Source of the DNA: Amoebophrya sp. A120 | Taxonomy: Eukaryota > Protista > Dinoflagellata | Assembly (NCBI GenBank): GCA_905178155.1 | Contig: CAJINV010000002.1 | Coordinates: 62,001 to 126,000, forward strand | DNA length: 64,000 bases | Reading direction: 5' to 3' | Shown: one piece after another, positions 7,776 to 49,364 of the stretch | Layout of the letters: every line of letters starts with the position of its first letter | Position numbering within the stretch: position 1 is the first letter of the stretch | Translations under genes and position numbers: made by a program | Notes under the pieces: model-generated | Told to the model about the DNA's origin: nothing | Seen by the model: only the letters and a program-made list of their open reading frames with translations | Databases searched by the model: none

Positions 7776-7902
7776 AAGCCCGCCCACTCTGGATACTTGA
7801 GCCCGCTCTGGATATTTATTCGATTCGGATCCAGGTATGTTTTCTGCTCTGGATACTCAGGCTCTCTGCCCCCTGCTCTGAATGTGGTAGCCGAGGGCGC
7901 GC

Positions 7903-8250
7903 CGGGGGTTTGTCTGGGGTGTGTCGGGGGTGTCTTCCGGGGGTGTGAGACGGGGATCCCTGGGGTGTGACGGGGGGGTGTGTCGGGGGTGTGTCTGGGG
8001 TGTGTCTGGGGTGTGTCCGGGGTGTGTTCGGGGTGTGTGTTGCAACTTGCAAATCACGATGCTACGCAGCCACTTTGCATACCCCAGAACACACCCCAAA
8101 GCTTCAGCAGTTCTTGTCGGGGGGGGTGTGTCGGGGGTCTGTCTGGGGTGTGTCCGGGGTGTGTTCGGGGTGTGGCCTGCAAATTACAAATCACGATGCT
8201 ACGGACCTACTTTCCATACCCCAGAACACACCCAAAAGCTTCAAAAGTTC
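7903..8250 (+). repeat. G-rich ~11-bp minisatellite (GGGGTGTGTCN) within a duplicated ~135-bp unit
   Basis: Many GGGG-TGTGTC runs; the tail TGCAA.TT.CAAATCACGATGCTACG...CATACCCCAGAACAC occurs twice (~8042 and ~8178). Confidence 0.88.
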
Positions 8251-11473: not shown

Positions 11474-14400
11474 TTACCTGCGCTTTGACGAACGCCTGCT
11501 TCTTATCCTGGAGAAAAACGTCCCTTTTCCAGAGTCAAGATGGGGGCCCTGCAATACAAGCCTAGAAGTTCTTTTGGGAGAAGTTACGCATGACAAGCTG
11601 CAGTCCGTACAGGTTAGCAAGGACCGCCGGATTTTTACAAATCCAGCTTACAGCATTACAAGTTCATCAAAACACGACTGGAAATGCCTATCATGGGGGT
11701 GCGTATCACATATGTCACTGTAAAGTAATTTCAGATCTGCATGATACCTCTAGGGTGGGGACGTTTTCACATAGAATACTGCTCGACGAACACCTGCGCT
11801 TCCTCGACCTCCCGCGTTGTTGCCCGTCCCCGTCTTGTATCTGTATACATCCCAAACATGTCTGGCTCGAGAAGAGTGCACTTTGTCATGCTGCTTTCGG
11901 CTTGTTGTAAAAAAATCTGTATTGCATCTGCAGAAAGTGACTGCGGAGTCCAATTTTTCCTTCGCGACGTCGAGAGCATTTGTCATGCGGGTCAGAAGGC
12001 ATCAAAAAATCCGCAAAAAATAAAAAATCTGTAAATGCAGCTAGTTGTCGCATACGCATTGCAGACATCATTGGTCGTCTTCTTGCAAAATGTGGATAAA
12101 CAAACCTGGCAATCTTCCAGACGACCGAGACACCTTTGCAATGCATAATCTGCGCGGGGGGCTCGACGTCCGGATCTTCGTAACTTGAAGCCGGATTCAA
12201 GTTTATCGGGTCTTGCTGTGCCGCGACATCAGCACTAGTCGCGGTACCTGATTTTTCAGCGGTAGCGTGCTGGCCTGCAGTGCCTGTCCCCGGCGAAGAC
12301 GGCTGCCCCGTTTGGCTCGGCGGTTGTTCGCCAGCTGTCCCTTGCTGCAGAGCAATTCGCGGTGACGCCGCTTCAATGGTTGTGGTTTGCTGCTGCGCAG
12401 CAGTGCCAGCCTGCTGGATCAAGGTTTGCCGCTGAGGCTGAACCGCACTTGCATCATTTTGGTTGTGCTGCAGTGGCGGATTATTAACGTCGGGTAGCTG
12501 TAGCGGAGCAACTGGTTCTTGGACCGAGCCGGCACTATTGAATGACGGTCGCGGGGGGTGCTGCAGGTTGTCTCCAGCACCAGCTCCAACTGCAGCCGTA
12601 GCTGCTCCAGAAGTTGGAACTTCCAACTTCCGAAGTGTCCGCGACTGATCCATTTCGGTCCTATTTTCTCGGTGCTGACCATGCACCGTTGTGTGGCCGA
12701 AGTTCGGGTTGTTTTGCTGGTTATTGAAGCGCTGCTGACGTTCTTGCTGCTCGGGATTAATAGGGTCATTTACATTACTGAAATTTTCCTGCTGCGTGAG
12801 TAGCTGCTGTATCAACACACTCTGCAAATAGTACGCCTGCACAAAATCATGATGGGTTTGCTGGATCTTGTTGTCACCTTCTCCACCCTGGTTTAATACT
12901 TCTTGCTGCTGAGTGAGAGTGTTGACGGCATTGCCCATCTTCAAGTGGTTCTGAAGCAGGGACTGGAGCAGGCTCTGAGCATTAGCATTCATCACACCTC
13001 CCTGCTGCTGCTGCTGTCGAGCGTTGTTCATGTTTTGTACGCCACCAGCTTGTAGTTGCCCCTGGTTGTTCATCAAGCTATTCTGCTTGTTTTGCTGCTG
13101 CGACGCCAGCGGCTGCTGTCTCTGAGGTGGGTCAAACTGAGCATACGCCGAGCTTGTGGTGCCCGTCACATGCATGCGCGGCGCCGGTTTGGAAGTTGTG
13201 TTGGTGTTGGAACCAAGATTCAAACTTAATTGATTTTGCTGTGCCGCGACACGCACAGTAGTCGCGTTATTACCTCGTCCGGAACCAACGACGGCACCTC
13301 CCTGCTGATTTGCAGTTCGTACACCACCCACCGTCGAGTCCTGGCCTGCCGGGGTACTATTCTCCATCTGCTGCTGCATTGTCTGCAGCTGGAAGAGCTG
13401 GAGTGCCTGCTGCAGCGTCAAGCTACTCGTGGTTAACCCCGGAACTAAATCCTGTTGCGTGCCCGGCGCCGGTGTGGAAGTGTTGGTGTTGGAACCAAGA
13501 TTCAAACTCAACCGACTTTGCTGTGCAGCGACACGCCCAGTAGTCGCGTTAGTTGCACCTCCGGCACCAACGACAGTACCTCCCTGGTGCTGATTTGCAG
13601 TTCGTACAGTGCCCGCCGTCGAGGCCTGGCCTGCCGGGCTACTATTCTGCATCTGCTGCAGCTGGCCACCTACAATACCGGTCATCGTCGTGCTGCTCAT
13701 GGTTAACCGCGGAACTACACCTTTTTGGGTCGACGGCCCAACAGCAGTCTGCAGTTGCTGCTGATTCAAGTTTTGAGTCGTGGTTTGCTGCATCTGCTGT
13801 TGGTTGTTCATGCTCACGGTGAGATTTTGCTGCTGCTGCTGTATCCGAAGCTGCTGCTGTTGATCTTGAGATAAAGATAAATCCATCTTCTGCTGCTGCC
13901 CGACATTACTCAGACCACTCGCCATGTTGCTTTGCGCATTGAGCATTTGCTGTTGAGGCATTTGCTGTTGCTGCTGGAGCTGTATCGTGTTCTGCTGCAT
14001 CGTGGTCTGTTGGGGAAAAAAGCTGTTCATAGTCGTTGTTCCCTGCTGCTGCTGCTGCTGCTGCTGGAACTCATTTTGATGCTCAATGCTCGTCCCCATC
14101 AGGTTATTGTCGTCCATGTTTTCCTATGCATTGCAAATATGTCTGGGTCTGGAAAGTTGTCATGCTAATGTCCAAAGGATACACGAACTGCGTTGCGCAG
14201 CCGCGCATGACAAATAGCCATTTTAAATGACAGACAAGTGCTGTTGTAGCGCAACAAGCATGACAAACTTGTATTCTTCCAGGAGACCACCCAGAAATAT
14301 TTGCATTTGATATGACAAGCAGGATCGGGTCCGGCGCTCCCGGGTTCAGCTGCTGCAGGCCGGATGTGAAGGAACCAGCAGAGAAGTTTGCGTGCCGCGT

Positions 14401-16145
14401 CAGCTGCTGATTATATCCTTGCACACCTTCCTGGGGTTGGGCTGTGCCCGTGTTCTGCTGCTGGTCGTTCATGTTGCCCTGTTCTGTCAGCAGTTGCTCA
14501 ACACCATCAACAGCTGTCTGCAACTGCTCGGGTGAGGACGGGCTGCCAACAGCTGGGGGCGCCGGAGAGGGTGGCGGAGAACTGCCGGAATCTGCAAGAG
14601 GGTCACCAAGCCTGCGGTGGCTGCGGAGGAGGTCCAGGTGGTCTTGGACGCCCAGCTCCTCCGCCATGTTGGCCAGCGCCGCCTTGTCCTGCTCGACCAA
14701 CCACCAAATCCCCTCCCTCGTCACATCGATGCGTTCGCAGCTGCCTAGGTCGATTGCCTTGAGTTCGCGAGCGCCCTGCAACGCGCGAGCAGTGTTCCTG
14801 CGGGCAAAATCCCGATGCAGCCACCCCCCATTGTGGATATGCATTTACAAACCTCCTGCCCGGGTTCTTCAATTGCAGCAGAAAAAATTTCGTGTTTCAT
14901 CTGCATGTAGTTCCGTGTCCAGTTGGCATCAACCTGTACCGCATGATCAGAAGGGAATGCATACGAGTAGATCATGGGCATGACTGCATAGCCGCAGCAG
15001 CAACTGTGCCGCGCTGCCATGCGTGGAAGAAAGCCATCGCGGGGTAAGTATTCATGCAAAAACGTCACAGCTCTGTGCTGCTCCATGACCAGGCACATTT
15101 GTGGTGGATAGTGGATCTGGTCAAGCAACGTCTTGGCCTCCTATATGGAGGAGTTCTCAAACTTTACATTCTCAACCTGTTTGCATGAGTCAATTTATAT
15201 ATGCAACACTATAGGAGCAGCAAAATTGCAGCTGGCCGGGGATATCACTGCTGCTGCCTCTTGCATTACAGACTTGGGGTTTTCATGCTAATTACCCTTT
15301 CAGTAATTTGTCATGCAAGCCAGCTTCATCGTGTGGATGTGGAAGCCGATCACAATTTTGCATGAGAAGTCACGTAATAGTTGTTGAGAATGTAACGTTT
15401 GAAAATCCCATACTCTCGATGTAGTCCTCGCGTTCAGCTAAGGAGGACTCCCGGCTAACCAACTCCGATCCGCTTCTACTTAACTTCTCCATTCGCATCC
15501 GGCATATCGATCCGGCGCCCAAGATGTGCATTGCAAACGTGTCTGAATCTGGAAACAAATATACATCAAGTGTATGATGCGTAATATGTACTGGATTGTG
15601 ATTTTTTTTGAAACTTCTGTTCTATGTATATGCTTATGCATAGCTGCGAGGCTGCATGAGAGGTTTTTAAACGTGTACATGATATTGGTCTTGCGCCTTC
15701 CGCATGACAAACTTCGCTTTTGCATGACAGACGGCTTTTAGACGAGTGTACTTTCGGAAGCGCGCAATACAGATCTAAGAATCTTACTTCTGAATCATGC
15801 CAGATATGCATGATAAATCTTGAATTGTATTTCCAGACTCCGATATGTTTGCAGTGGGTACAGGATGTCAACCGATTCGACGTTCACCCAGCCGTCAGGT
15901 TTCTCCTCCATGAAGGTCCGAGAGAGATTATCGCACGCGAGAAAGAAATCGGTCGCGCATGATGTCGATCATAGTTGAGAATCATAACATGACACAGTTC
16001 TTGGGCTACATGCCCGGGCGATCCTTTTTCGCTGTGATAAGTCTCAATCTCCTTCAATTGCGCCGGAGAAAAGTGACACTCGACACCCCTGGCCTGCTCC
16101 TGCTGGACGAAGGCATATGAGAGCGCACAAGATCCTCCTCCCTCT
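11474..16145 (-). CDS. Multi-exon atypical protein kinase-like protein with ~700 aa Q-rich tail; probably extends upstream to ~16930
   Basis: Exons joined by removing elements 15929-16039, 15525-15860, 15144-15412, 14838-14963 (or -14990), 14125-14312, 11844-12147 and 11504-11778, each +5 nt. Reads MCLVMEQH...HNGGWLHRDFARRN...LKAIDLGSC, then the poly-Q ORF 11886-14117, ending RGRSRKRRCSSSSRRSSKRR-stop. Confidence 0.7.
11504..11778. mobile_element. TIR introner, family B
   Basis: TATCCTGGAGAAAAACGTCCC...GGGACGTTTTCACATAGAATA; DR CTTCT/CTGCT. Confidence 0.85.
11844..12147. mobile_element. TIR introner, family A (degenerate)
   Basis: Perfect DR ATCTG. Confidence 0.85.
13185..13715 (-). repeat. 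Intragenic ~290-bp duplication in the Q-rich exon
   Basis: PAGQASTAGTVRTANQHQGG...RVAAQQSRLSLNLGSNTNT versus PAGQDSTVGGVRTANQQGG...RVAAQQNQLSLNLGSNTNT. Confidence 0.88.
14125..14312. mobile_element. TIR introner, family A (short)
   Basis: Clear TIR, DR decayed (TTTCC/TGACA); +5 removal joins ORFs 14104-14844 and 11886-14117. Confidence 0.85.
14838..14990. mobile_element. TIR introner, degenerate (right end 14963 or 14990)
   Basis: TATGCATTTACAAA...TGCATA; either end +5 nt removes an in-frame TAA just before the HRD segment. Confidence 0.5.
15144..15412. mobile_element. TIR introner, family E
   Basis: TATGGAGGAGTTCTCAAACTTTACATTCTCAAC...GTTGAGAATGTAACGTTTGAAAATCCCATA. Confidence 0.8.
15525..15860. 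mobile_element. TIR introner, family A
   Basis: DR CAAGA/CAGGA; +5 removal in frame. Confidence 0.82.
15929..16039. mobile_element. TIR introner, short degenerate
   Basis: TATCGCACGCGAGAAAG...CTTTTTCGCTGTGATA; +5 removal bypasses a stop. Confidence 0.55.
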
Positions 16146-16624
16146 CATACATTGAATTTGTAATGCGCAATACACCGAACAACATGTCCAGGTGTGTTGT
16201 ATTCTCTAGTCTGCATCACAAATTTTTGGAGCCACAAACACTGCTGCACCTTGTGAGCGGATTTGTCATGCAGAACCCAGAGTTGTATGGTATTTCTGCT
16301 GTTTTCTGTGTTGTCCTTGCTCATGCCCTTTAGATGAGGTGGCGGGACGAGTGCTGTCGTGCACTCTCGTATTTGCGTCGCGGCTGCTTCGAATGCTGCG
16401 AGTAGATTCTCGTCGGCCGGCAATCCCTATCCTGAATGAAAGCCTCCCCACCCCACACATGTCATGCATCTGTGCATACCGGAATGAGCATCTTGCTCGG
16501 AGCTCTACATGAAAGGCGTTTTTTCCTACTTGTGTTTGGTTTTGGATTTGGATATCTTTCACACGTCTGTAAGAAATAAATCAGAACCAGGGCGGCGCGG
16601 ATTTGTCATGCGTCTGGACGAGCT

Positions 16625-16930
16625 GCGCTGCGTAGACACGCCCTTTCTGTGTGAGTACCAGGCGAAAGGCTGGGCACGTTTTGCATGATTGACACTCAAC
16701 ATCGCGATCAGGATGGGCTGGGAGGGTATTTCCTTCGGATATCTCGTTCAGCTGCGCGAAGTTCACGACATCGCGACCCCCGTCGACTGGTGTGGAAGGC
16801 TGCCACACCAGACCCCTTTCGTCGCAATAGCGGGCGGCCGCGTGGGCGACCAGGGGCGCCACGAGATACTTTTCCGCGGCCTCATCGGATACCACGACGA
16901 AGCTCCCGCCGCTTTCCCAGCCACCACGCG
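16625..16930 (-). CDS. Probable upstream exon of the 11474-16145 kinase-like gene
   Basis: SFVVVSDEAAEKYLVAP resembles VVFYDVESGRAEKYLFAAG in the paralogous kinase at 39110-47423. Confidence 0.4.
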
Positions 16931-18929
16931 AAACGAGAAATCGCATGCTCAAAAATATCTGGTGATGAAGCACAAAGAAGAAAAATTACAAACAAGTCGC
17001 TAAGAAAAATTACAAACTACAAGTCGCTGGGAAAAAGAACTGCCACACATGCTGACAAAACAAAATGGTTACAAACAAGTCGCTAGGAGAAGGAACTCTA
17101 ACGTACGGCACGTGGTAACAAAACAAAACATGCTTTGCTTTTGTTTTCTTGCGAGAAGAAACTAAATGTCCGATGCTGATTTGTGATGCGAAAAGTACAA
17201 TATTCTGCAGTTACCGATTGGATATTCGCCTGCGAGAGAATGTGGGTGTTGAAGCGGGAGGTTTAATTATTCAATCATGTCCCGCCAGCATTCAAAGTAG
17301 CGGATGTGTTGTTTTTCGAAAGCCGACGGCTAAAGTCTACCGGGATGAATGTCGGTTTTTCAATCTGACTGTAGGAAAATTAATAAGTACTTATTCGTGC
17401 ACAGCAGACTTCTTCACTTTTTGTGTTGCTAGGTCATCGTGAACATCAACAAACCTTTTCCTAGATGATCTCCAGCGCTCCTCCATCCTTTTTATCCATG
17501 CGTCTGTCCCGACCTTTCAGGCCACCTAAAAAGAGAGACGTAGTGAAGCAACCAGAAAAAACAACAAGATCCAGCATCTGTGATTACAACGCCATGTCCA
17601 CGTCAAGCGAGATCTTCACACGACTGATTTGCTCTACGGGTAGAACTACGGTCGTGTAGATAACGACAAATAGCGAAAAACCTCCGGCGGGATCGGGCTC
17701 CAGCTGGTAGTGATCAGCTATAGTAGCAGATACAACTCGTGCCAGCACACAAACAGCCGTCCCTAGATCATCGGTTCTACTGCGCAGTTGTCTTTTTCTA
17801 TACATTTGACGTGCCTCTAAAAATCCTTGGTCGATACGATTTTCTTGTCAGCATTGTACAATTGGTTCGCAGTTGTAGAGCAGGTTTTCTGCCCGTGCCC
17901 TGTGAAACCTTCCTTTTTTCGTCTAGAGATCATACCACGCCGTTTTTACAGCTTCGCTGCTAGTCAGAGGTGGTTTTTTCTCTTCAATAGCTCCTTCAAT
18001 CAAGAGCTACTTTAATACATTCATTTTGGTACAGTAAAATCAAAGCATAGATTGCTAGAAGATTAGATGATACTAGTTGTAGTTGAAAAACATCCTTCAC
18101 CATATTGTACACACTTTTGGTCTTTCCGCCCCCTTTGCATCCGCATGCGTAGATGCTACGCCATGCAGCCGAGGGAGACACTTTTTTTTCAGTTGTAGAA
18201 GTAAGTAGTAAGCTGTGTAGTACCAAGCAAGCAAGCTGTTTAGAAGTAGATTCGATTTGTTATTGCACGTTCAAGATTTTTTTTTCCGTCGGTGCTGGTT
18301 CTGTAAACAAGCTGAAACGCAGCCACCAGACGGCGCCAAGCGCCTCTCCACGAGGACTGCCTGACAATGAGAACAAGAGTTGTAGTAGGTGGAAGTAAAA
18401 GGTTTGTTCGATGTCGCACCATAATTGAATACTATAATTGATCTCAACAACACAGAAATCTCCTCGGCTCATCCGCCCGTCAGCTTAATAGAAGGACCGC
18501 CCTTCCTGCTGCCGAAACCACGTTATCATTCGGAAAACTACACGACCAATCCATTTTAGAGCAGTCCAATTATTCATTACCTCTGCAGAACAGCAAGATC
18601 CGGAAATCTGTCATGCCGGACGCGGGAAAATTATTCAGTGAGGTTCTCTCCACTTTGACTTTTATTCGCGCTGTGTAGTAGATTTAGATGCAAATTACTA
18701 TCTCTACTTCTTCCTCATGAGACTGGTGTCGGTCGTGTAGAAGTAGTTTCCCGTGGCATAGGGTCGGACTGGCCCCACAAGCTTTCCGTGTGGTCCACCT
18801 GGTTGGTGAAGAGCGCCGCTTGGGGCAACCGATTGTTGTGGTTCATCTGGGTCTCCTGCTGCAACCGGCTGCTGTTTGCCGGCACTGCCTGCTGGGACGA
18901 CGGATTGCCGCGGTTGAATAGGTTGCTGG

Positions 18930-37384: not shown

Positions 37385-37865
37385 ATCTATGATGCAATTT
37401 TTGCAAGAAGAAGCTTCGGGCAGAAAAATTCGCTCTGGTGCACGCCCGGAAACCGATTTTTAGGTCGGGAGCAGAAGTTTGTCATGCTTCTGCCCGAAGA
37501 CCTCCCTCCCGCCCAAAAAACCGGTTTCGGAGCAGACCCAAAAACCGTTTTTCTGACCGGGTAGAGAAATCTGTNNNNNNNNNNNNNNNNNNNNNNNNNN
37601 NNNNNNNNNNNNNNNNNNNNNNNNNNNNNNNNNNNNNNNNNNNNNNNNNNNNNNNNNNNNNNNNNNNNNNNNNNCATGCTTCTGCCCGAAGACCTCCCTC
37701 CGGCCCAAAAAACCGGTTTCCGAGCAGACCCAAAAACGGTTTTTCTGACCGGGTAGAGAAATCTGTGATGCAATTTTTGCAACGCGAAACAGCGGCCAGA
37801 AAAACGGTTTTTGTGAGATTGGGCGGAGAAGTTTGTCATGCTTCTGCCCGAGCAACCTCCTCCTG
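37385..37865. repeat. Tandem repeat (~160-190 bp period) spanning an assembly gap
   Basis: CATGCTTCTGCCCGA at ~37483, 37675 and ~37837; GATGCAATTTTTGCAA at 37391 and 37767; N gap at 37575-37674. Confidence 0.8.
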
Positions 37866-39109
37866 GCTGAAAACCTGCTCCTTGCTCCCAAGCTTCAAAT
37901 GCTACACGAATTCGACGCCAACACTTTGTTCCGAGTTTTGGTTCTGCATGGTAGACAGAGGAACGCAGGTTTCCGACGCTACACACGGACTGCCTCTACG
38001 CTAAATTCTATCGTCAGTCGTGCTTTAAACGGAAACGGCCGAAAGGCTTCAGCAACCCAACCGAACGTCCTGACACAAAATGAACCGAAGACAAACCGAG
38101 GTACCACCGTGCCACATTTCCATCTACTTGAAGTTCAACATCGTGAGACAGTTTGGCAGCGGCCATATCCTCATCATGTCAGCCAAGCAACAGAACGCAA
38201 CAACGAAATCTCTCTGGCTTTGCTCGACGAGTAGCGTATGCATATTCTGCTACTTGTTACTAGCGCCACCTGTGACGATCCGCACCGAAAACAGATCGAG
38301 GCTCCAAATGTGAACCTACTACATCAACTTCCAATATTCAGAATTAAAAACGAGAGTCGACGGTCTTCCTGCTTGTTTGGCGCACTGATTCAGATTTTGT
38401 CTTCAAGGAGCTGCTGCCTTCATTTTCATAGATTTTCAGCATTAAGTGGTTGCTGGGGCTCACCTAGCAATAACTCTGAGAATAGAAGAAGAGTATTACG
38501 ATCTAAACCTCGATATTCCGCCTTCAAGATGGTTTATTCGAATAACGGTTCTCTGCAGCTGGTGTTGCGTGTCCACAACGTTCGAGTTCTCTTTACTCCG
38601 TCCTGGCATATTTGGTAGAAAGGCAAAGTGGCTGTGGTATAGCTGTTTGGTTCTTGACGAGTCGGCAGCACTAAGTGTCCGGCTCAGTTGTTGTACTTAT
38701 CACTCCGTATTTATCGTTACGAAAATGTAGTCCTAGCCTCCGTCGTGCGGCCGGCTATTTCATTTTTCTCTATCAAAGGAGGCGAGATTGACCGTCCTTG
38801 TACTTCTCCCTGTAGTTTTTAGATTCGAAGATGATCCAATCGAGAAAAAGCAGCTTGCTGCTTCTGAGGGGGTAACACCGCGGCGAGACATGCGGTTGGG
38901 GTAGGTCATTTGTTTCTCGGTGTTCCTCTTCGTCTGCAAGGGGTGGATGTGCGTTTTGCTGCGATGGGCTGTGATGGGGTGGTCGTCAGAGGTTGTGGTG
39001 CTGAAGCACACGGCTCGCTCGCGACGTAGTTGCTCCGTTTTTCCGGTTCTGAATGACTACGTAGACCAAAGAAGAATTCATTTTTCTGATCGTGAAATTC
39101 CTGGCTGCA

Positions 39110-42100
39110 TTACTGTTTCGCAGCGCCACCAGCGCGCTTCGGGTACACTTTGTCCGTATCGGGAGGAACAAAAATCCCGGCTCCCCGTACTCGAAATACA
39201 GTTGCATGACATCACTTGCACAGCTGCGTACTTAATGCTCTATCGCTTGTGAAGTATCCAGCATGACAGATCGGGTGTACTTATGATATATTTCCGGCAA
39301 CGGGAGGGGATCACTCGTCTCTTGGATATATCACCTGGTTCTTCAGCTTGTAGAACTTGTAGTGCGGGTGTTCATGGTCCACGTTTAAAATTTTTTCGTA
39401 ATCTTCTTGCGTCTTCGGGTACTTCTTCAGGTCCTTGTCCGGTATGTTGTCCTCTTTCCTGCGGAGAAAGTTCTTGATGCCCACGATGTTGTCCTCGTAG
39501 CCGTCGTATCAAATGCAAATACGTCTGCGTCCAGAACCCGGTTTGAAAGATTGCGAGATTTATTCTACTCATGTTTGTCTGAGAAGAGACAGAGAGCGAA
39601 GTCTGTCATGCTGGTTGCACTACAGCCACAGCGCAATCTATCCGTCACCCAAAGACGTGACTTGTCAAGTGGCAATTTATGCTAGAAGCCGTAATCACGC
39701 AGCAACGCCTTGTCAACATAGGTGGGTTCTTTGTAGCGCATCATCCACGCTCTAGCATGATCACAGTTTTGTTCCAGACCCAGACAGATTTGCAACTCGT
39801 ACGTTCTTGCGGGGGTCGAACAAATCGTCCAGCTGCTGCTTGTTCCAAGCCGTGTTCGCGCTCACTTAAGTATCCTGACTAAAAACCTTCTCACCCCATA
39901 TTCAAGAGGACGCGGAATTCACTACGCAAACTCTCAGAGGCGGTGGTTGGAATTCACGTATCATGACGAAAGTTGTTCCAATAGGTAGCAGCTTGGCTAG
40001 TGCAGCGCATGGACTTATGCAGCTGATTACAGCATGACAACTCTTCAAATCCGTGCGTCACAGAAGTAGATTTGCGTGACACTAAAGATGGGGTGGGTAG
40101 TACGTTTTTACACAGCATATTCATTTTTCCCAGCCCTCGTTCCTATGGTTTTGAAGATAATCGCATCGTTCTCTGTCGTCCTGTCCTCCTCGGCTTTTTC
40201 TCGAGTGTACCTGTGCAGCAAGGCCCAGAGAGAAACCGCTTTGTCGTTTTTGGTGTAGAAGTTTCCCGGCGTACGACCGACGACAGCGCCACCTGCTCGC
40301 ACCGGAGGATTCGCCTTGGCTTGATGCGGAACGGCCGGGACATATCCTGTCCAAAAACGTCCCAACCCCATAGCCAACTTGGGAAATCTGCGACACAAAT
40401 CAACACACGGTAGCTGTTGCGCATGACAAGTTTGCCTTCACAATTTACTCCCCTTTGGCTAGTGCAGCAGCATCACATCAAATCTAATTTGTGATTATTG
40501 ATTTTTTGAGCATCACAAATTTCCAAACAGCACTACAAAATGCGTCTCGTGGGGCTCCGAATGAGAGACTTTTCAACAGCATGCAGATTTGCATGACAGC
40601 TGTGGGGTCGGGGCGTTTTTACACAAGATAGGGCAGGTGGAGCGGCTTTTTGAGCGGCTGCTTTTGGAACAGCGGCTGCGTTTGGAACAACGGCTTCCTC
40701 TGGGGCGGCTTTATTCCCTTTCGAAGCGACAGGTCCGGTCGATTGAGGCTTCGGCACAGCAACTCCAGTGCCTTTTGTTCCTTTCTTCCCGCCGTTGTCC
40801 TCGCCTTTATCATTATTTCCACTTCCGGGTCCTTTTCCCTTGGTATGGTTCTGTTCCGCGGCTTGATGCGGTGCTGCTTTTGTGTGGATGCCCGTGGCTG
40901 ATTCGCCTTTGCTCACATTTCCGCCGCCCTTTTGCGCTCCCCCGTTGTTCAAGCCGTACTTGGCATTATTTTGCGACACCACTCCTACAGCGGGATCACG
41001 ATTTTTCCCACCTTTGCTCACAGGAGGCCCGCTGCCTTTCAATCCGTCCTTGTAGCTAACCAAGCCGCCCTTGATGTGCTGCGGCGCCGCTGGTGGTGGT
41101 ACTGCAGGCTTCCCATCTTCTTTGGTACCACTCCCGCCGGCATTCAATCCGTTCGTGTCACCTAGTACCGAGCTGCCCTTGTGTAGTTGGGGTGCTGCGA
41201 GCACAACTGGATGGTTTTGAGGAGTTCCATCTTTGGTCCCACCGACTTGTTGGACTAACCCCTTCTTGTAGTTCACCAAATCGCCCTTGTGAAGATGTTG
41301 CGGTGCCGCTAGAAGTGGCACTTCTGCATGATTTTCGTGTTTGCTCCAACTCGCGGCGTTGTTTTTGTGTCCGCCATAATTGCCTTTTTCCGTTCCGCCG
41401 AGCACAACTGCATGATGTCCACCTTTACTCAACTGGAAAAATTCGCCGTTTTTGTTCCCGCCATTGTTACTTTTGCCGTGTGGCGGCTCGTCCGCTCCCT
41501 GTGGTAGTACTGCATTCCTCGTGAAACCGCCTACAACCAGAGTTGGGTCGCCATGTTGATGTGGGTCGCCATGTTGATGTGGGTCGCCATGTTGATGTTG
41601 CAGTACTGTGCCGCTCCGAAACATCCCTCCGAAGGGAAGCCCAACTTGAGGCACTTGTAGTTGCAGTTCCCAAGGAGGACGAGAAGCGCCGCCGGACTGC
41701 GATTTGTTCGTTGCTGTACCGAGCTGAAGAAGAGCTGCGGATGGCGGCGGACCACCCCTAGACTTCTGCACCGGAGGGCCAGACGTGGAAGCAGTTGGGC
41801 GGGGAACAAGAACATCGTCATCCAGTGGGGATCGCTTGTCAATCGTGCCTGATAGTAGAAGACGCTAGAATAAAAGCAACAACTTCACGCTTCGTCAATG
41901 CTGTGCAAAGAAAAATATATAAAACAAGACCATGACCATGCTGTGATCCATCATGTTCATGACAATCAAACCTCACCTCCAAAACCGCAAAACAAAAAAT
42001 TTCACCCGGTAAAAAAATCAAAAGAAATACGTTTGTTCGACGAAGATGATTGCGCGTGGCTGCCGGTGCTGTTGTAGAATGCCATGGGGGGCTGCTTTGC

Positions 42101-45100
42101 TGGAGGCGGCAGATTATTTGCTGGTTCTGCGATTCCACGGTCCAATATCGCAGGAAAACAAAAAGCTGTTTTGGTGTGAGCTGCCAGGTTTATTGTTCAT
42201 GTAGCTGCACGACCGCGGGTTCGCTCCAGCACATCGCGAAGCAAATAATTTGCAGAGCTGCGAACTTAGAAATTATCATCACAAAGAAATGAGAGAAACA
42301 GGGGGCAAAAACAAACGCCTCTCAGCTTTCAATTTCATGCGTACAAGGTATAGCGAGCTCCTTCCTGTTGCATCCTGAGCATCAATGCAGCTCCTATCCG
42401 CCAAAACAGTTTTTGGTGTGGATATTGGATCCTCTCGCGATCGCCTGCTGGTGGTGCGATGGGACCGAAATCCGGTTCTCGAGCGATCGAGCTGCTGCAT
42501 TGAAATCGTAACTCCGGGTATGCATTGGAAATACGTCTGGGTCTGGAAAGTTGTGATGCTGATGTCCGAATCGTGGTACGCAACCTGTATTAAGGAGCCG
42601 CGCATGACAAGTTTCTGGACCGCATGACAAATGGCCTTTTTGCATGCCAAACAAATGGCACTGTAGCGAACCAAGGAGCATGACAGATTTTTTTGTCTTG
42701 TCGGCCAAGCATGAGAGACTTCCTTGCATTCTTCGAGACCCAGACATGTTTGCAGTGGATACCGGAACAACTTGAGCAACTGTGTGGCAAATTGGAAATC
42801 CGGCTGGCCGCTGCACAACCTCCTGAACGCCGCCAGTGGCTGCTCGGGCGTTTCTATGCATGGCAAATACGTGGTCGTGGCCTGGGTCTGGGAAGACGTG
42901 ACGCTTGTGCGCGGATGACAAGCAACCTCCGCAGCTACGGCGCAACGCATGACAAGTTCCTGAGCGACAACGACGTCTAGTTGTAGCGGAAACCGTGTGA
43001 AGGTGAGAAAAAGAAAATGAATTTCATTTATCTGAATGACAAACAAATGGTAAGTGTGGTGCTGTGGTGCACAACTCATGACAGACTGCATCCTTCCAGA
43101 CCACCTGAAAAACATATTTGCTAGGCATAACTTCTCCCATACTGGCAGCAATTTCGTGTAAGTCGAGCATCAACATGTGAAGGTTAGCCTTAGCGCCGCT
43201 GATCAGTTCGGTCTCGCGCTGCAGGGCAAGGAGGGAGTTGGCCCGCCGCGGGTTCGTGTTTGTCCGTACTTGATCTTGCCTCTGTTGCGGCCGGCTGTTG
43301 ACGTTTAGCATGTTCGCTTGCTGCAGCTGTTCTCCGGAAGGGTGGTGTTTGTATGGGAAAGAAAAGGGGGAACATGTTGCATCCTCTGGTCCCATAGTCA
43401 AGTTGTTAATAGATGTGCTCTGCGAGGATGCATGATTTTACTACAAGATATGCTCTGAAATTTCCACGCCGATACAGCTCTCGCTTTCGCACTCATTTGC
43501 AACACAAATTTGAATTCTCTTTAGCAAATCTGGCATCACAATGTGATCTTCACATCACATCTTCCATTGAGTATGGGAGGGGAGCTTTGGTTTCGTTTCT
43601 CTGATAGCTGGTGGCGGCCCGCCTCGGAAAGAGCCGTCCGGGTAGTTTGACTGATGGTTCCTCCGGTGGTGGGGTCAAAAGAGGAAGAAGACGATGAAAC
43701 TTCACCAAGCATTGCTTGTCTCCTCGACCCGGCTTCTACTTCACCATAATCGCACAGAAAAAAGAACAGTTGTATCAATCTGACCGCCTTCTTTTTGCGA
43801 TGCAAAATCATAAAGTCCTGGTGCTGGCGGGTTCAATATGGCCCGCTTTCTCATTCGATGCGGAACATGCAAAACACTAAAAGTAGTGTTTCTTTTCAGA
43901 CAATCTATTATTTGCTGTGCAGAGCAGGTGGAGGTAATTTTTGCATAGCAAATCTGTGGTACAACTACCAAGATTTTTCTGCGTACTGCTCTACGCTCGG
44001 CGTCGCTCGGGGTGGCGGTGCTTTCCCCGCTCGCTGCGCAGGAATGAAGGGAGGCACTTCGGATGCGGCCTTGGACGTTGTGAAGGGAGGCGCTCGACGA
44101 CCGTTGATTTCCTGTTGCTGTGACGAGGGGAGAAGTGGATGCCCGAGCGCGTCCAATTGCGAGGCCTGCTGTTGTTGGGCAGGAGCCGCAGGGGCCGCAG
44201 TGGTAGTAGTGCCGCCGCCGGTCGACGCGCGCCGGGCCGGACTTCCGCAGGCACGATCCTGGGCTGCTTGTTTCCTTTTTTTGAGGTATTCCTCAGATTT
44301 CTCCATGTGAAGCTGGACTTTTGCCGCCTTTTATGAGAGTGCACAACTCCCCCTCGTCCCCCTCATTTGTGTATCATGAACAGCACACGTGTATGCTGTG
44401 CATGACAGGCTTTTGCACGAATTGTAGTTCTATTTGGGCTTCCGCTTCCAGAATGTGTCATGCAAACAGTGCTACGAGGCAGCATCACAGCTGGATTTTT
44501 TTTGATTTTGCATGACAAATGAGGCGGAGGGGGAGTTGTGCGCTGTAATACCTCAGAGTCGAACATAAGTTGCTGCAACAGCTGCTGTATGCATTGCAAA
44601 TATGCAGTCTGGGTCTGGAAGTTTGTCATGCACGATTGCACATAAGCATGATCCGCGCCGCTTTTGTTTGTACTGCATGCTCTAGCATCAGCATCACACC
44701 TTTCGCACAGGCTTGCTCATGCCTATCCCACATCAGAAATGCGTTCTCGGGTGGCAAAAATCCAAGCACCTTTTCCTGCTCATGCAATACAAGTTTTTGG
44801 AGCATAGAGAGTTTAAGCATCACAACTCCCATTCTTTCCAGACACAAGGACATATCTGCAATGCATATTCTCCTCCAGCGAGGCTGCATCTGCGTTCACT
44901 ACTCTCCCTACCCCGAAGTCGAAAAGCACCAGCTCGTGGACGCTGTCTTGCGAAGTTGTTGTATCCGCCTGTTGTATAATATCCTGTGAAAGAACTACAG
45001 TATCGTACTCGCTGTATTAATCGCAATAGAATACTGCATGACAGATCTTCTACGTGTGTACAATATTCAGCATTACAAACTCCATTTTGGATGCTAGGAA

Positions 45101-47423
45101 ATATTGTCTATGCAATTTCTGTTAGTACGATACTGTTACTTTCTTTTGCAGTGCATACTGCGAAATAACTCGTCGCAGGCCGATGTTCCGAAAAAAAACG
45201 TCCTCGTGCACGAAGTCGACTTCGGAGTACAACTCCGGTATCCTCTGTAAGAACGTCCCCACGACCCCCGAGTCGAGACGGGGGGAACTCTGCCATACAA
45301 GTCCGGCAGTGTAGTTGGGAGTCACGCATGACAAGCTTCTCGCTGTACTGTAGTGCAGGTTAGAAAGGACAGCCGCATGAAGAAGCCATCTCCCTATCCT
45401 GTTTGCGGCATTACAATAAAGGCCAGAACACAATTAGAAATGCCTCTCTTGGCTTCTACGCACGCGCATTACAAGCGTTCCTGTGTTGAGTGCAGATCTG
45501 CATTACAGCTCTGGGGTGGGGACGTTTTTACACGGGATATCCGGTAGTGCTTCTTCTGCCAGCCACTTCCTGACCTTTGCTGGCTTTACCAAGCCGAGGA
45601 TCTGGGCGCCGCACGCCTCCAGCCTCTCCATTGAAATCACAGCGAAGCAGCCGAAGTTCTCGGAAAAATCAGAGATGGCGACGTCCCGCGGAAAATTTTT
45701 GCTCCCCAGTGCGGCGGCCTTCTGCGTGACGACTAGTTCTTGCGCACCGCAGGGCGGCAGCGGACAGGGAGTGTTCTTTTTGACGTAGCGCTCCGCGGCG
45801 TTTCGCATTGCAGCACGGATTTCTGGCAAAGTCTGTGCGGTTTGCATTATCACAATGAAAAATCCCCCCTCCCCATACCAAAACGCAGATCTGTGTAGCA
45901 GGATTTGGGCGGCCCACAAATCATGTTGTCATGCTAGAACAAGGTAGTCCTCGCAGCTGGCGACGTGGGAAGGCCTTGCATCTTCAGTCGATGTTGACAG
46001 GAGGCAATTGGAAGTGGGAAACAGCATGAGAAAGTGCCTGCAATCAAGGCCGCAACTACGTCTCTTGGCCTTCTAGCAACACAAGCCGATTCCGATTTGT
46101 GTACGCAAATCCAATTGCATCACAAATTTCCACCTTTCCGAGTATATGGGGAGGGGGGATTTTTCTTCACAATATCCATCGCCGCCCGCGCCTCGTCGTC
46201 ACCCGGGAAATGCCAGGAGAAGTTGTCTGCTTTATGGTCAGGAAAAATTCCCCCTCCCCTCATGCACCAGCAGGAAATTTGTCATGCTATTTCAGGCAAG
46301 AGAGCAACAGTTGTTGGCTCGCATCGTGCTGAACAAAGCACAATGCGAAAGCCCCTTTGACGTTACAGCTTGGTCGCTGGTGAAGATCTTCACGAGCAAA
46401 AACTTTGCAAGAGGGTGGCGCTGTCTTTCTTGTCGTGTTGTATCTGGGGGGGGCTTCGTGTTTCACTTTGATACGCCTGCACTTCGGGCGGTGGCAGGCG
46501 AAAACTGTCTTTCCCCGTCGCAGGATCCGGGCCGACCTTGGCCGGCTTCGCCAACCACGTGACCTCGCCCTGTCCCACGTGGCTGGCGAAACCGGCCGCG
46601 AAGAGGTACTTCTCCGCCCGGTATCCACTGCAAACATGGGTCTGTCTGGGTCTGGAAACTTGTGTTGCTGACATTTGCATTACAGACTGCCTCATGCTGT
46701 GATGCCGTACAGGCAGCCTGCCTGTACGGCATTACAGCATGAGATGAAGTTATTTCCCTCAGCTTCCTGCGGATTCCTACTTCGTATTTAGCATTACAAA
46801 CTGCCATCCAGCAGCACGATAAAAAAAGAAAAACTGGCCAAGAATCGTACTCATGCATTACAGATTCAGATCTTGATGTCCTCATTTAACTACAACTGCT
46901 CGTCCCGCATCACAAATTATCCAGAGGACCCAGACATACTCATTTATTTGCAAGGCATACCCGTCCACTTTCCACATCATAAAACACCACGCGCGAGGGT
47001 GTGTTCAGCTTGTCGACTATTTCCCATTCTCCAATATGGATTGCAAAAATGTCTGGGTCTGGAAGATGGTCAGTTTTGTCATGCAGGTTTTCCATGGCCC
47101 ATGAGGTCTGGTATGTAGGACATAGCATGACAGATTCTGCGAGACCTTTCCAATGCCTATCCTGCATGAGAAACTGCCTCTCGATTAGGTCAAAAGTGCA
47201 CAACTTTATTTGGCAATCACGCAACACAGTATTTTGCCTGATTCAGATTTAGCATGACAAGTTCCATCCTGCTCCCAGACGCAGACATTTCTACATTTGA
47301 TATCCAAGGTATTGCGACGTCGTCCCCGGTTCTTCCCGGAGGGTCCGTTCCTTCCTGAACGGGTAGGTCGCGGGAGTGACGTGGAACCCGATCCGCTCGG
47401 GCGGTCTCTCTGGCTCCTGCGTA
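39110..47423 (-). CDS. Multi-exon atypical (RIO/Bud32/ELK-like) protein kinase with long G/N/K-rich tail and possible C-terminal SURP-like domain; 5' end not resolved
   Basis: Removing 17 TIR elements (each +5 nt) and one GT-AG intron (41849-42030) gives one open frame to TAA at 39110-39112. Motifs assembled across junctions: AEKYLFAAGFASHVGQGEVTWLAKP (subdomains I/II), AVISMERLE (V), LYSEVDFVHEDVFFRNIGL (catalytic loop), LVLFDFGVGR (DFG). Includes listed ORFs 45503-45919, 43965-44306, 43024-43401, 40533-41771 and 40108-40398. Confidence 0.8.
39157..39328. mobile_element. TIR introner, degenerate
   Basis: TATCGGGAGGAACAAAAATCCC...GGGGATCACTCGTCTCTTGGATA; +5 removal leads to a terminal exon. 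Confidence 0.5.
39507..39801. mobile_element. TIR introner, family A
   Basis: DR CGTCG/CGTTC; in-frame removal. Confidence 0.85.
39871..40119. mobile_element. TIR introner, family B
   Basis: DR TTAAG/TTCAT; in-frame removal. Confidence 0.8.
40343..40630. mobile_element. TIR introner, family B
   Basis: DR GGACA/GGGCA; joins ORFs 40533-41771 and 40108-40398. Confidence 0.88.
41544..41598 (-). repeat. 18-bp coding tandem repeat (HQHGDP x3)
   Basis: TGGGTCGCCATGTTGATG repeated three times. Confidence 0.9.
42146..42424. mobile_element. TIR introner, degenerate
   Basis: TATCGCAGGAAAACAAAAAGC...GTTTTTGGTGTGGATA; in-frame removal. Confidence 0.55.
42519..42761. mobile_element. TIR introner, family A
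   Basis: DR CCGGG/CCGGA; in-frame removal. Confidence 0.9.
42855..43129. mobile_element. TIR introner, family A
   Basis: DR GTTTC/ACTTC; in-frame removal. Confidence 0.82.
43352..43606. mobile_element. TIR introner, degenerate
   Basis: TATGGGAAAGAAA...TTTCTCTGATA; DR GTTTG/GCTGG; in frame. Confidence 0.6.
43748..43985. mobile_element. TIR introner, degenerate
   Basis: AATCGCACAGAAA...TTTTTCTGCGTA; +5 removal joins SVEQ|EVEAG. Confidence 0.5.
44332..44550. mobile_element. TIR introner, family D-like
   Basis: TATGAGAGTGCACAACTCCCCCTC...GAGGGGGAGTTGTGCGCTGTAATA; DR CCTTT/CCTCA. Confidence 0.8.
44588..44867. mobile_element. TIR introner, family A
   Basis: TATGCATTGCAAATATG...CATATCTGCAATGCATA; DR TGCTG/TTCTC. 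Confidence 0.87.
44980..45157. mobile_element. TIR introner, family C
   Basis: TATCCTGTGAAAG..CAGTATCGTACT...AGTACGATACTG..TTTTGCAGTGCATA; lies between the kinase catalytic loop and DFG. Confidence 0.8.
45239..45539. mobile_element. TIR introner, family B
   Basis: Perfect DR TCCGG; joins EALP|ELYSEVDFVHED. Confidence 0.92.
45848..46174. mobile_element. TIR introner, family D
   Basis: DR TGCAT/TCCAT; homologue of 23567-23877. Confidence 0.9.
46233..46473. mobile_element. TIR introner, family D (degenerate)
   Basis: DR TGCTT/CGCCT; in-frame removal. Confidence 0.75.
46622..46959. mobile_element. TIR introner, family A
   Basis: DR CCCGG/CCCGT; joins ESGR|AEKYL. Confidence 0.87.
47035..47302. 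mobile_element. TIR introner, family A
   Basis: Perfect DR TCCAA; close homologue of 1041-1307. Confidence 0.93.
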
Positions 47424-49364
47424 CTATGGGGGTGTCATGCTCGAAGTAGTCGTCAAAGATGAAATTATAGTTTGTCATGCATAAAAGTAAAAGGCGACGC
47501 AAGAAGTGCCTCTGTTGCACAGGACGCAAGGGAGGCAGATTGTAGTGCTGACAAGGGTCGAGCGTTGGGCGGCTGATTAGCATGACAGAGGAGAGCCCTT
47601 TTGTCCCAAACACAATGACATACTTGCTTTAGAGGAAATTTGTCATGCGCCGACTCTAAACAGAAATGGTATCAGTTTTATGCATTACAAATTTTCTCAT
47701 CTTTGTTGATTTCGATCCTGACACCCCCATAATGCGACCCCGACATGAATTCGTTTTTCTTCTTGGTTTTCGTTTTATCTCACTTCAAATCTTCTACTTA
47801 GGTGTTGAAAATGTTGAAATCGCTTGTCTCACAAAAAAACCATACTCAGTTACTGTGATCTGCTCCTGCTATTATACACTTTTGAGTGGATGGTGCACAG
47901 ATTAAAATTTTGAAAAATTGCCAACAAGATGAAGCTACTGTACCGGATTATACGCAAAATCAACATTTTGCTGTTCGCTGAATCAATCAAGCCCTTCATG
48001 CCTACGAGTCGTCGAACAACAATAAAGTGCTCATCTTCAAATATTTCTACAAGGCTGCGGGGGGGGTAACACTCACACAGCAACTCGAAGCAACTATTTA
48101 ACATTTTCTGTAGGACCTCGCATTCGCTCGCATTCTCTCGCCCCCGTCGAATATATCATAATAGGACTCCCAAATTTGACTACAACAAAAGCAAACTCGA
48201 ATTGTACGAATTAAAACAAAAACCGACGCCTCCCGACGACACGACTGACACGTCTATTGCCCCACGGATTTATCTAAGCGCAACGTCGGAAATGTTTCTG
48301 AATTATAAATTTGGTTCGGCAAAAAATATCAACGAGAACCGACGCATCTTTTGTTTTTAGGAGAACCAAAAGAGACTGACCACGTACGACCCAACAACGA
48401 GTTCGTCCTTGCTGTGACGACCATCCTCGTTCCACGTTTGATTTTCAGAAAAACCTAGTATACAGTTGTTCATTCATCATCTGGAAGTCTTGGTGCAGCC
48501 GCTATTCTGTACAGTACGTTTCTTACGAAGCGGCAAAGCTATTTCTATTTATTCATTGCTGAACAAAAAACTGGCATTTTGTATATTACGATCGTTTGAT
48601 TAATTTTGATGCAACTAGTACGACCCCTTCGTGCGAACAGAAATTCGTGATTGAGAAAATTTGTTGTAATAGTCTGAAACAGAAAGAGAAACCGAAACTG
48701 TGAATGCGTGAAAGCGCACTAGAACGAAACATTTTGAAACGTGTGTTTGTAGAAGTGATAGGATTACTGACTCAAGCCAATATAAATCTTCGATTGCAGT
48801 TGAAATTGTACGACTCGTCTGGCGAAACCTTCGATTGATTCTTGTGCGAAAACGTTCCTGTACAAAAAATCTGACTTCGAAAGCCGACAATATTCTGTGT
48901 AGTAAGAGAAAACTGTTGCCTGCTGAAGTAAACATAAATGCTTTGTAGTACAGCGTACCTGTTTGTTTTACGCGTAGGCACTTGTTACGTACCCAAATTA
49001 ATTCCGTCTCACTGCACGTCGGCCCCTCCGCTCCCCCTACAGCTCCGAATGCGCCCGTGATGAGCGTGTTGTGGTGCAGCTCGTTGAAGATAGGTGTCGA
49101 ACTAACTGGCCCTCCATGATCAGCCATAGTGATTTTTGGTGTCGATGCAGTTCCAGGCTTTGATGTGTTTCAGCCACTTCTTCTAGCTGCTGTCCTCATC
49201 ACATCTCCGATCCAGCAAGAAGAAAACTTCAGTTGCACTGCTGCTGCTACTACTGCTCAGGATGATTGATGCAGTTCTTGCGTGGGAGTAAGTAACCGGA
49301 TCGTCCTTTCTACCAGTAGCTAGATGTCGTCAAGGAGAAGTAGTAGGAGTAGATGTTCATCATG

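What the first reader, a model, noticed from the sequence alone, without database searches (positions are those of the whole stretch)
39110..47423. A hidden kinase gene split by 17 introners is the strongest internal test of the rule
Seen: no listed ORF shows a whole kinase. Applying the +5 rule 17 times (plus one GT-AG intron) gives one stop-free frame with kinase motifs in the correct order, some of them assembled across junctions: SGR|AEKYLFAAGFASHV..WLAKP, ISMERLE, EALP|ELYSEVDFVHEDVFFRNIGL, ISQ|QQAD..LVLFDFGVGR. All of families A-D are used. Inference: chance phase agreement at so many junctions is very unlikely, although I chose a few degenerate boundaries partly by frame. The HED loop and short C-lobe suggest a RIO/Bud32/ELK-like atypical kinase.
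Basis: partly seen in the sequence, partly recalled or inferred. Interest (0 to 1): 0.8.

Follow-up and report, generated by a model that had tools for sequence, protein, structure and literature searches.

The report
Kinase-like gene split by transposon introns
A 1,203-codon gene with a likely divergent kinase domain is interrupted by 18 hairpin-ended transposon copies of an already published kind (Amoebophrya introners) that are cleanly missing from probable transcripts although 17 lack normal splice signals, and the only cut position fitting every checked junction is a fixed one, likely read by a relaxed spliceosome.

Summary
Gene structure confirmed. Splicing gives a stop-free 1,203-aa frame. 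Probable-RNA contigs skip exactly element+5 nt at 16 of 18 introners directly and 2 by arithmetic, plus the GT-AG intron; a DNA-type run is unspliced.

(1) An 18th introner and the ATG (47746) lie upstream of its interval.
(2) The cut is 1 nt before TAT and 4 nt after ATA: this fits 16 of 16 junctions, cutting flush at TAT fits 10 of 16.
(3) Frame alone fixes the length only modulo 3.
(4) The catalytic motifs lie within exons, not across junctions.

A kinase-like core (NFP, ME hinge, HxDxxxxN, DFG) is modestly supported (z 4.1; above all 162 non-kinase decoy windows). RIO is not supported and Bud32 was not tested. The proposed Gly-loop and lysine motifs are two arms of one RNA hairpin, so they are doubtful. 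No homologue was found. A probable paralogue lies at about 11.8-17.0 kb.

The elements match published Amoebophrya A120 introners. I did not find the fixed register stated in the papers read; this scan noted it before on other DNA of this genome.

The parts
39110..47746 (-). Coding span of the gene: 20 exons, 3,612 nt, 1,203 aa. Kinase-like domain about aa 60-310, long low-complexity linkers, short helical-looking block about aa 490-580, unclassified C-terminal region about aa 1050-1203
   Evidence: contigs
47733..47857 (-).
   Evidence: X2 contig piece 47733-47857 and joint 47420|47733 in X1-X3
47421..47732 (-).
   Evidence: 312-nt skip; fixes register -1/+4 uniquely
47031..47303 (-). Introner intron 2, AT-GG, perfect 5-nt flanking repeat
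   Evidence: 273-nt skip
46618..46960 (-). Introner intron 3, GT-GG
   Evidence: 343-nt skip
46540..46597 (-). Exonic 23-bp RNA hairpin whose arms encode the AGFASHV and TWLAKPA stretches
   Evidence: (z -4.8, 0 of 200 shuffles)
46229..46474 (-). Introner intron 4, GT-GC
   Evidence: 246-nt skip; rejects a cut flush at TAT
45844..46175 (-). Introner intron 5, AT-GC
   Evidence: 332-nt skip
45541..45843 (-). Largest kinase exon: YVKK (candidate lysine), E168 (candidate alphaC Glu), NFP, ISMERL hinge
   Evidence: residue roles inferred
45235..45540 (-). Introner intron 6, AT-GG, perfect flanking repeat
   Evidence: 306-nt skip
45185..45208 (-). Catalytic loop H243-x-D245-xxxx-N250
44976..45158 (-). 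Introner intron 7, GT-AT, flanking repeat 0/5
   Evidence: 183-nt skip; fixes register uniquely
44912..44920 (-). DFG motif (D278)
44584..44868 (-). Introner intron 8, AT-GC
   Evidence: 285-nt skip
44328..44551 (-). Introner intron 9; at the -1/+4 register its ends are GT-AG
   Evidence: 224-nt skip
43744..43986 (-). Introner intron 10, GT-GG, degenerate ends TAC...ATT
   Evidence: 243-nt skip; fixes register uniquely
43348..43607 (-). Introner intron 11, CT-AA
   Evidence: 260-nt skip
42851..43130 (-). Introner intron 12, TT-AA
   Evidence: 280-nt skip; fixes register uniquely
42515..42762 (-). Introner intron 13, GT-CG
   Evidence: 248-nt skip
42142..42425 (-). Introner intron 14, AT-GG
   Evidence: 284-nt skip
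41849..42030 (-). Ordinary GT-AG intron
   Evidence: 182-nt skip
40339..40631 (-). Introner intron 15, CT-TC
   Evidence: adjacent contig pieces 40337|40631 in X1 and X4
39867..40120 (-). Introner intron 16, AT-TA (ends predicted)
   Evidence: arithmetic only: 64 unlisted contig letters equal the predicted exon
39503..39802 (-). Introner intron 17, GT-AC (ends predicted), 5' end TAC
   Evidence: arithmetic only, as above
39153..39329 (-). Introner intron 18, AT-GA
   Evidence: adjacent pieces 39152|39330 in X4; fixes register uniquely

Best explanation
This is an 8.6-kb gene whose 18 transposon-like inserts are absent, each with exactly five extra bases, from probable transcripts, giving a 1,203-residue protein that likely carries a divergent protein-kinase-like domain, and the inserts are likely cut by a relaxed spliceosome one base before TAT and four bases after ATA. 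Shown: the exon chain, the removed lengths, and that -1/+4 is the only single register fitting all checked junctions. Inferred: each element inserted with a 5-nt target duplication; the intron takes 1 nt of the upstream copy and 4 nt of the downstream copy, so one copy's worth is restored and the frame is kept whatever the target sequence. The element's TA supplies the +2U/+3A of the donor, the first A of ATA (always at -7) would be the branch adenosine, the terminal hairpin would bring the ends together in place of U1, and the 3' cut would be set by distance rather than by AG. The protein is likely an intracellular, minimal ELK-type kinase (catalytic Asp, Asn and DFG intact, no APE segment) followed by about 900 mostly low-complexity residues; its activity is untested.
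For: Lengths predicted before laying RNA match 15 of 15 joints shown in three runs of one sample, and 4 more (2 direct, 2 by sum; X4 is a second sample). DNA-type run X5 covers the region unspliced. X1-X3 have zero depth in upstream bins 47888-48300 and in several intron bins. Register: -1/+4 fits 16 of 16, 0/+5 fits 10 of 16, and 5 junctions allow only -1/+4. Flanking repeats are eroded (51 of 90 positions match; two are 0/5) yet removal is exact, so microhomology is not the cue. +2T, +3A, -7A and -6T are each 18 of 18, while +1 and -1 to -4 are free. Across 25 elements in two minus-strand genes, all 4 variant 5' triplets keep TA and both variant 3' triplets keep the -7 A; by hand this is (1/2)^6 under a symmetric null. 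All nine predominant A120 motifs in Table S4 of PMC7789003 have T at +2, and U1 was not detected there. Kinase: glocal score 23.7 against a Pkinase-core profile, z 4.1, 0 of 300 shuffles; above 162 of 164 decoy windows, the two higher ones being UbiB-like kinases by their motifs; E. coli UbiB scores 23.6. A two-sequence profile aligns to Pkinase with probability 77%, E 2e-5.
Against: The runs are 'RNA?' by guess, come from one study, and are contigs rather than reads. The one confirmed RNA run laid (X8) had no reads on exons. No single contig bridges the short tandem repeat near 41550-41600, so kinase-to-C-terminus continuity rests on the open frame; the DNA run breaks at the same place. The invariant bases belong to the inverted repeat, and I picked ends resembling TAT/ATA, so their conservation partly follows from ancestry and selection. 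No lariat or branch point was seen. One element shows no terminal pairing in its predicted fold. The kinase evidence is weak: ordinary hmmsearch does not separate it from shuffles, single-sequence hhalign fails, and no homologue was found. H158 is not conserved, and the Gly-loop and lysine are unassigned.
Confidence: 0.68

Rival explanations
1. Same gene and register, but the introners are removed by a non-spliceosomal, structure-guided endonuclease and ligase that measure from the terminal hairpin.
For: 17 of 18 lack GT-AG; by my count, 14 of 18 pair 12 or more of their first 20 nt with their 3' end; U1 was not detected (PMC7789003); Euglena has a spacing-defined non-canonical code removed by unknown machinery (PMC12501133 abstract).
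Against: +2U is the base shared by all spliceosomal donors (established knowledge); variant ends respect +2/+3 and -7 asymmetrically; an ordinary GT-AG intron shares the transcript; most spliceosomal proteins and U2, U4 and U6 are reported present.
Confidence: 0.22
2. The N-terminal domain is a pseudokinase or a kinase-derived scaffold, or the motifs are chance and it is not a kinase fold.
Against: D, N and DFG are intact with canonical spacing; a short catalytic regex matched 6 of 20,000 shuffles of the full protein (the regex was written after seeing the sequence); NFP and the ME hinge fall in register; the paralogue keeps HRD, N and DLG.
Confidence: 0.4
3. The intron-free contigs are DNA (precise transposon excision or a processed gene copy), not spliced RNA.
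For: The runs carry no library record and 'RNA' is a guess.
Against: All inserts and the ordinary GT-AG intron are missing together at 100% exon identity; 5' ends differ between runs; there is no upstream cover; the DNA-type run shows only long unspliced pieces among those listed.
Confidence: 0.04

Closest known systems
Introner elements among the non-canonical introns of Amoebophrya sp. A120 (Farhat et al. 2021, PMC7789003; seen: passages, sections 11 and 16 whole, supplement passages including Table S4 rows; figures not seen)
   Same: Inverted repeats starting with TAT followed by an A-run, 3-5 nt direct repeats at the boundaries, about 240 nt, many families, non-GT-AG ends; top A120 motifs all have T at +2.
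   Different: The paper calls splice sites variable relative to the hairpin and places inverted repeats 1-5 nt from the sites; here one register (-1/+4, net element+5) fits 16 of 16 junctions. Figures 3, S19 and S23, which I could not see, may already show this.
TIR/MITE introners generally: Micromonas, Aureococcus, and genes with tens of introners in A120 (PMC12130899, PMC11282704; passages seen)
   Same: Non-autonomous TIR elements with target duplications that become introns; many per gene.
   Different: In Micromonas the element gives one splice site and the duplication must supply AG; here the 3' dinucleotide is free.
Euglena non-conventional introns (PMC12501133; abstract and outline seen)
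   Same: Paired terminal motifs at fixed distances from the cuts; coexistence with GT-AG introns.
   Different: Different motif (CAG/CTG) and spacing (3 and 5-6 nt); no invariant +2U in the stated signature.
ePK-like kinases (ELK/PKL; Kannan et al. 2007, PMC1821047; passages and section 9 seen)
   Same: P104, H164, D166, N171 and D184 equivalents are present, with candidates for E91 and D220; no extended activation loop or APE motif, as in non-ePK families.
   Different: No family assignment; H158 absent; G52 and K72 ambiguous; a long low-complexity tail.
WNG kinases of coccidia (PMC6442604; passages seen; lead first recalled from memory)
   Same: Alveolate-parasite kinases in which a helix replaces the Gly-loop; here a predicted helix precedes and covers YVKK (low confidence).
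   Different: WNGs are secreted, coccidian, and have an acidic residue for the DFG glycine in WNG1; this protein has DFG and no hydrophobic N-terminus by eye. Homology was not tested.

Membership tests
Amoebophrya A120 introner elements | Terminal inverted repeats starting with TAT, with a run of A about 7 nt later | tested here: met
   16 of 18 start TAT and 2 start TAC; description
Amoebophrya A120 introner elements | 3-5 nt direct repeat overlapping the exon-intron boundaries | tested here: met
   51 of 90 positions match against about 22 expected; 13 of 18 have 3 or more of 5; two have 0 of 5
Amoebophrya A120 introner elements | Repeated in the genome in families | tested here: met
   many related copies across the window; very high repeat depth in X5
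Amoebophrya A120 introner elements | Removed from RNA without GT-AG | tested here: met
   the RNA status of the runs is a guess
Amoebophrya A120 introner elements | Host is Amoebophrya | not tested
   inferred from element anatomy; no genome is held and no marker gene was checked
Spliceosomal intron | Lariat with a 2'-5' branch at an adenosine; U2/U6 dependence | not testable with these tools
   only an invariant A at -7 and U at +2 were seen
Protein kinase-like (PKL) superfamily | Catalytic H-x-D-xxxx-N and the DFG aspartate, in order after the alphaC-beta4 proline and hinge | tested here: met
   P184, H243, D245, N250, D278
Protein kinase-like (PKL) superfamily | Gly-loop glycine, beta3 lysine and alphaC glutamate | tested here: inconclusive
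   candidates G76, K91 or K154/K155, E168; hairpin-encoded motifs; lysines not kept in the paralogue
Protein kinase-like (PKL) superfamily | Bilobal kinase fold | tested here: inconclusive
   only one exon could be folded (pLDDT 57.5); its fold searches were uninformative
ePK/PknB | Extended activation loop with APE, and W-[SA]-x-G in the F helix | tested here: not met
   no APE or W-S-x-G after DFG in the product; features
RIO kinases | Similarity to the RIO core profile, including its non-DFG motif | tested here: not met
   z -1.2 against a profile of 16 proteobacterial RIO proteins; archaeal and eukaryotic RIO were not sampled
KdoK/WaaP | Similarity to the Kdo core profile | tested here: inconclusive
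   z 2.5, 3 of 300 shuffles; the reversed sequence scored almost as high
Bud32/TP53RK | Similarity to the Bud32 profile; short stand-alone kinase of KEOPS | not tested
   no Bud32 sequences were obtained; a 1,203-aa orphan is unlike the short conserved Bud32 (recalled)
WNG kinases | Helical lid in place of the Gly-loop; secreted; clade membership | not tested
   no WNG sequences were available; features

The most novel reading that the evidence does not exclude
Amoebophrya A120-type introners are spliced by a U1-less spliceosome acting as a ruler: it reads only +2U/+3A and a branch A at -7, both supplied by the element's own TAT...ATA ends, with no AG requirement, so any 5-nt target is tolerated without a frameshift. 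The gene also represents a lineage-specific family of minimal kinases with a remodelled N-lobe that standard searches cannot see.
Probability: 0.45. Interest if true: 0.75.

Novelty: new member of a known kind. Interest (0 to 1): 0.45.

Why it matters
How Amoebophrya removes tens of thousands of non-GT-AG introns without a detectable U1 is stated as open in PMC7789003. A fixed -1/+4 register turns it into concrete tests (branch at -7 A, need for +2U, no need for AG) and explains why these elements can land anywhere in exons without shifting the frame. It also gives an annotation rule that recovers genes hidden from ORF and profile searches, such as this one and a probable paralogue in the same window. 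The kinase itself is an unclassified orphan of modest interest until folded or assayed.

Tried and rejected
No run on record as RNA held the stretch. X8, a confirmed RNA run with the same species label, gave 191 partial reads on one introner and none on exons, which is no evidence either way. X7 gave only short pieces.

Homologue searches with single exons were blank: Pfam (8 exons; one E 0.14 hit), NCBIfam, the 5.8-billion set, PDB sequences, plasmids, and viral, metagenome and genome contigs. The one hit among the 1.84-billion representatives (P0001) is a tandem-repeat ORF with best pairwise E 0.019 and was rejected.

ESM Atlas gave no usable hit for the kinase exon. For a C-terminal exon it gave integrase arm DNA-binding clusters at 0.94 with only 95 of 256 shared features and inconsistent families, so I did not accept them. 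The single-exon AlphaFold model was low-confidence and matched nothing. Local hmmsearch and single-sequence hhalign, local and global, did not detect the domain. Local pairwise alignment of the two window kinases was not significant (168 of 1,000 shuffles scored as high); the global alignment was (0 of 1,000, z 4.9).

Profiles used 28 of 30 Pkinase, 16 of 18 RIO and 28 of 28 Kdo loci; truncated loci were dropped. An unspliced reading frame scores 22.8 on the same kinase profile, because the core introns are multiples of three, so that score does not test splicing. Rfam found nothing in the window. No whole genome is held. The spliced domain was not folded or scanned against family libraries, which leaves fold and family open.

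Full report
Observation. The window is eukaryotic-looking DNA full of 150-340 nt repeats with terminal inverted repeats that begin TAT and end ATA, often flanked by 5-nt direct repeats (45 elements in a strict whole-window scan). Removing each element plus 5 nt gives an open frame of 1,203 codons from ATG 47746 to TAA 39110. Random per-junction offsets never reached full length (0 of 20,000). Uniform offsets of +8 and +11 are also open to the natural stop, so the frame argument fixes the removed length only modulo 3.

RNA test. I wrote the predicted introns down first, then laid public runs. Contigs of X1-X3 (one sample; RNA by guess) at 100% identity show 15 joints, with one further row not shown. 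Their lengths equal the prediction in 15 of 15 cases: 14 introners and the GT-AG intron. X1 and X4 give two more introner joints by adjacent pieces, and the last two by a 64-nt unlisted stretch equal to the predicted exon. The DNA-type run X5 covers the region in unspliced contigs; it may be the source of the assembly. X1-X3 have no depth upstream at 47888-48300. Limits: contigs rather than reads, one study, and no record across the short tandem repeat near 41550-41600, where the DNA run also breaks. The confirmed RNA run X8 did not cover the exons.

Register. Because the flanking repeats are eroded (51 of 90 positions match), the joints show which copy is kept. A cut 1 nt before TAT and 4 nt after ATA fits 16 of 16 directly seen joints; a cut flush with TAT fits 10 of 16; five joints allow only -1/+4. 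This changes three residues relative to 0/+5. At this register only 1 of 18 introners is GT-AG. Positions +2T, +3A, -7A and -6T are invariant (18 of 18), while +1 and -1 to -4 vary freely. In 25 elements from two minus-strand genes, the four variant 5' triplets are TAC and the two variant 3' triplets are ATT and ACA, so +2/+3 and -7 are spared. This is weak, selection-prone support for splice signals over mere repeat symmetry. I recorded the register before consulting earlier scan notes. Those notes report the same register on other pieces of this genome, and one supplied the 'UA and A at -7' wording, which I then checked.

The protein. Residues about 60-310 hold, in order, NFP (P184), an ISMERL hinge, H243-x-D245-xxxx-N250 and D278-F-G, then a D-x-x-S-L helix ten residues later and no APE. 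No library or database search with single exons found a relative. I built profiles from proteobacterial Pkinase, RIO and Kdo loci. Ordinary hmmsearch did not separate the domain from shuffles. A glocal score over the alphaC-to-DFG segment gave z 4.1 for Pkinase (0 of 300 shuffles), 2.5 for Kdo (3 of 300) and -1.2 for RIO. The score of 23.7 exceeds 162 of 164 decoy windows; the other two are UbiB-like kinases by their motifs, and known ELKs score alike (UbiB 23.6, Kdo median 21, RIO median 19). I put a kinase-like fold at about 0.8 and catalytic activity at about 0.45. The N-lobe is unresolved: the AGFASHV and TWLAKPA stretches are the two arms of one 23-bp RNA hairpin (z -4.8; 20 of 22 pairs against a maximum of 17 in 200 codon shuffles), which makes it unlikely that both are inherited kinase motifs. 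YVKK with E168 is an alternative, but a low-confidence model puts YVKK in a helix. The rest of the protein is mostly low-complexity, with two unclassified blocks.

Probable paralogue. A second minus-strand gene at about 16970-11800 opens for 1,100 codons when seven elements are removed by the same rule. It has HRD, N and DLG and a Gln-rich tail, shares AEKYL, and aligns globally to the first domain at z 4.9, though not locally. The two-sequence profile matches Pkinase at 77%, E 2e-5. It lacks lysine at both candidate sites and was not tested with RNA.

Mechanism. Most likely, non-autonomous TIR elements insert with a 5-nt duplication and are spliced out by a relaxed spliceosome. The element gives the donor's +2U/+3A and a putative branch A at -7, the hairpin juxtaposes the ends, and the 3' cut is set by distance. 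Taking 1 nt from the upstream copy and 4 nt from the downstream copy restores one copy's length, so the frame survives any target. Lengths and register are shown; the spliceosome, branch point and hairpin role are inferred. The main rival is a structure-guided endonuclease and ligase.

Comparison with what is known. The elements match the A120 introner elements of Farhat et al. 2021 (PMC7789003: TAT-starting inverted repeats, 3-5 nt direct repeats, U1 not detected). Genes with tens of introners in A120 are noted in PMC12130899. Farhat et al. call the splice sites variable relative to the hairpin, yet all nine predominant A120 motifs in their Table S4 have T at +2, consistent with the register found here. 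I did not find the fixed register stated in the passages read from searches. Their figures, the supplements of PMC12130899, and Roy et al. 2023 (preprint seen as a listing only) may bear on it. A search for Amoebophrya, kinase and kinome together returned no paper. Reviews PMC11282704 and PMC11453091 were seen as passages.

Verdict. A real, RNA-supported gene and a clean confirmation of the element+5 rule, with the register corrected to -1/+4. The intron system is published; the kinase is a plausible but unclassified ELK-type orphan, not RIO by the test run. New member of a known kind; interest 0.45.

Noticed in passing
window 11800-16970, minus strand: A second introner-split, kinase-like gene (HRD, N, DLG; Gln-rich tail), probably a paralogue; open for 1,100 codons after removing seven elements at -1/+4. 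A further element at 11844-12147 with a perfect flanking repeat lies near its end.
   Followed up: partly
window 46540-46597: A 23-bp exonic RNA hairpin whose two mismatches are both G-U pairs on the transcript strand; possibly a template-switch product or a functional structure.
   Followed up: partly
window 38700-39109 and beyond: The RNA-type contigs run at least 400 nt past the stop inside the laid stretch, and X1 has 339 more letters beyond it, suggesting a 3' UTR of about 750 nt or more.
   Followed up: no
window 46652-46844: A 193-nt low-depth X1 contig lies wholly inside introner intron 3, which contains an internal 26-bp palindrome (46691-46743); it may be unspliced RNA, excised intron or DNA.
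   Followed up: no
window 41546-41600: An 18-nt tandem repeat encoding His-Gln-His-Gly-Asp-Pro units; it breaks both RNA-type and DNA contigs.
   Followed up: no
window 41849-42030: The ordinary GT-AG intron also begins G-TAT but has no A at -7 and no clear inverted repeat; it may be an old introner or a standard intron.
   Followed up: partly
window 7396-8190 and about 37400-37800: Tandem repeat arrays next to assembly gaps (91-nt units and 11-nt G-rich units near 7.4-8.2 kb; another array near 37.5 kb).
   Followed up: no
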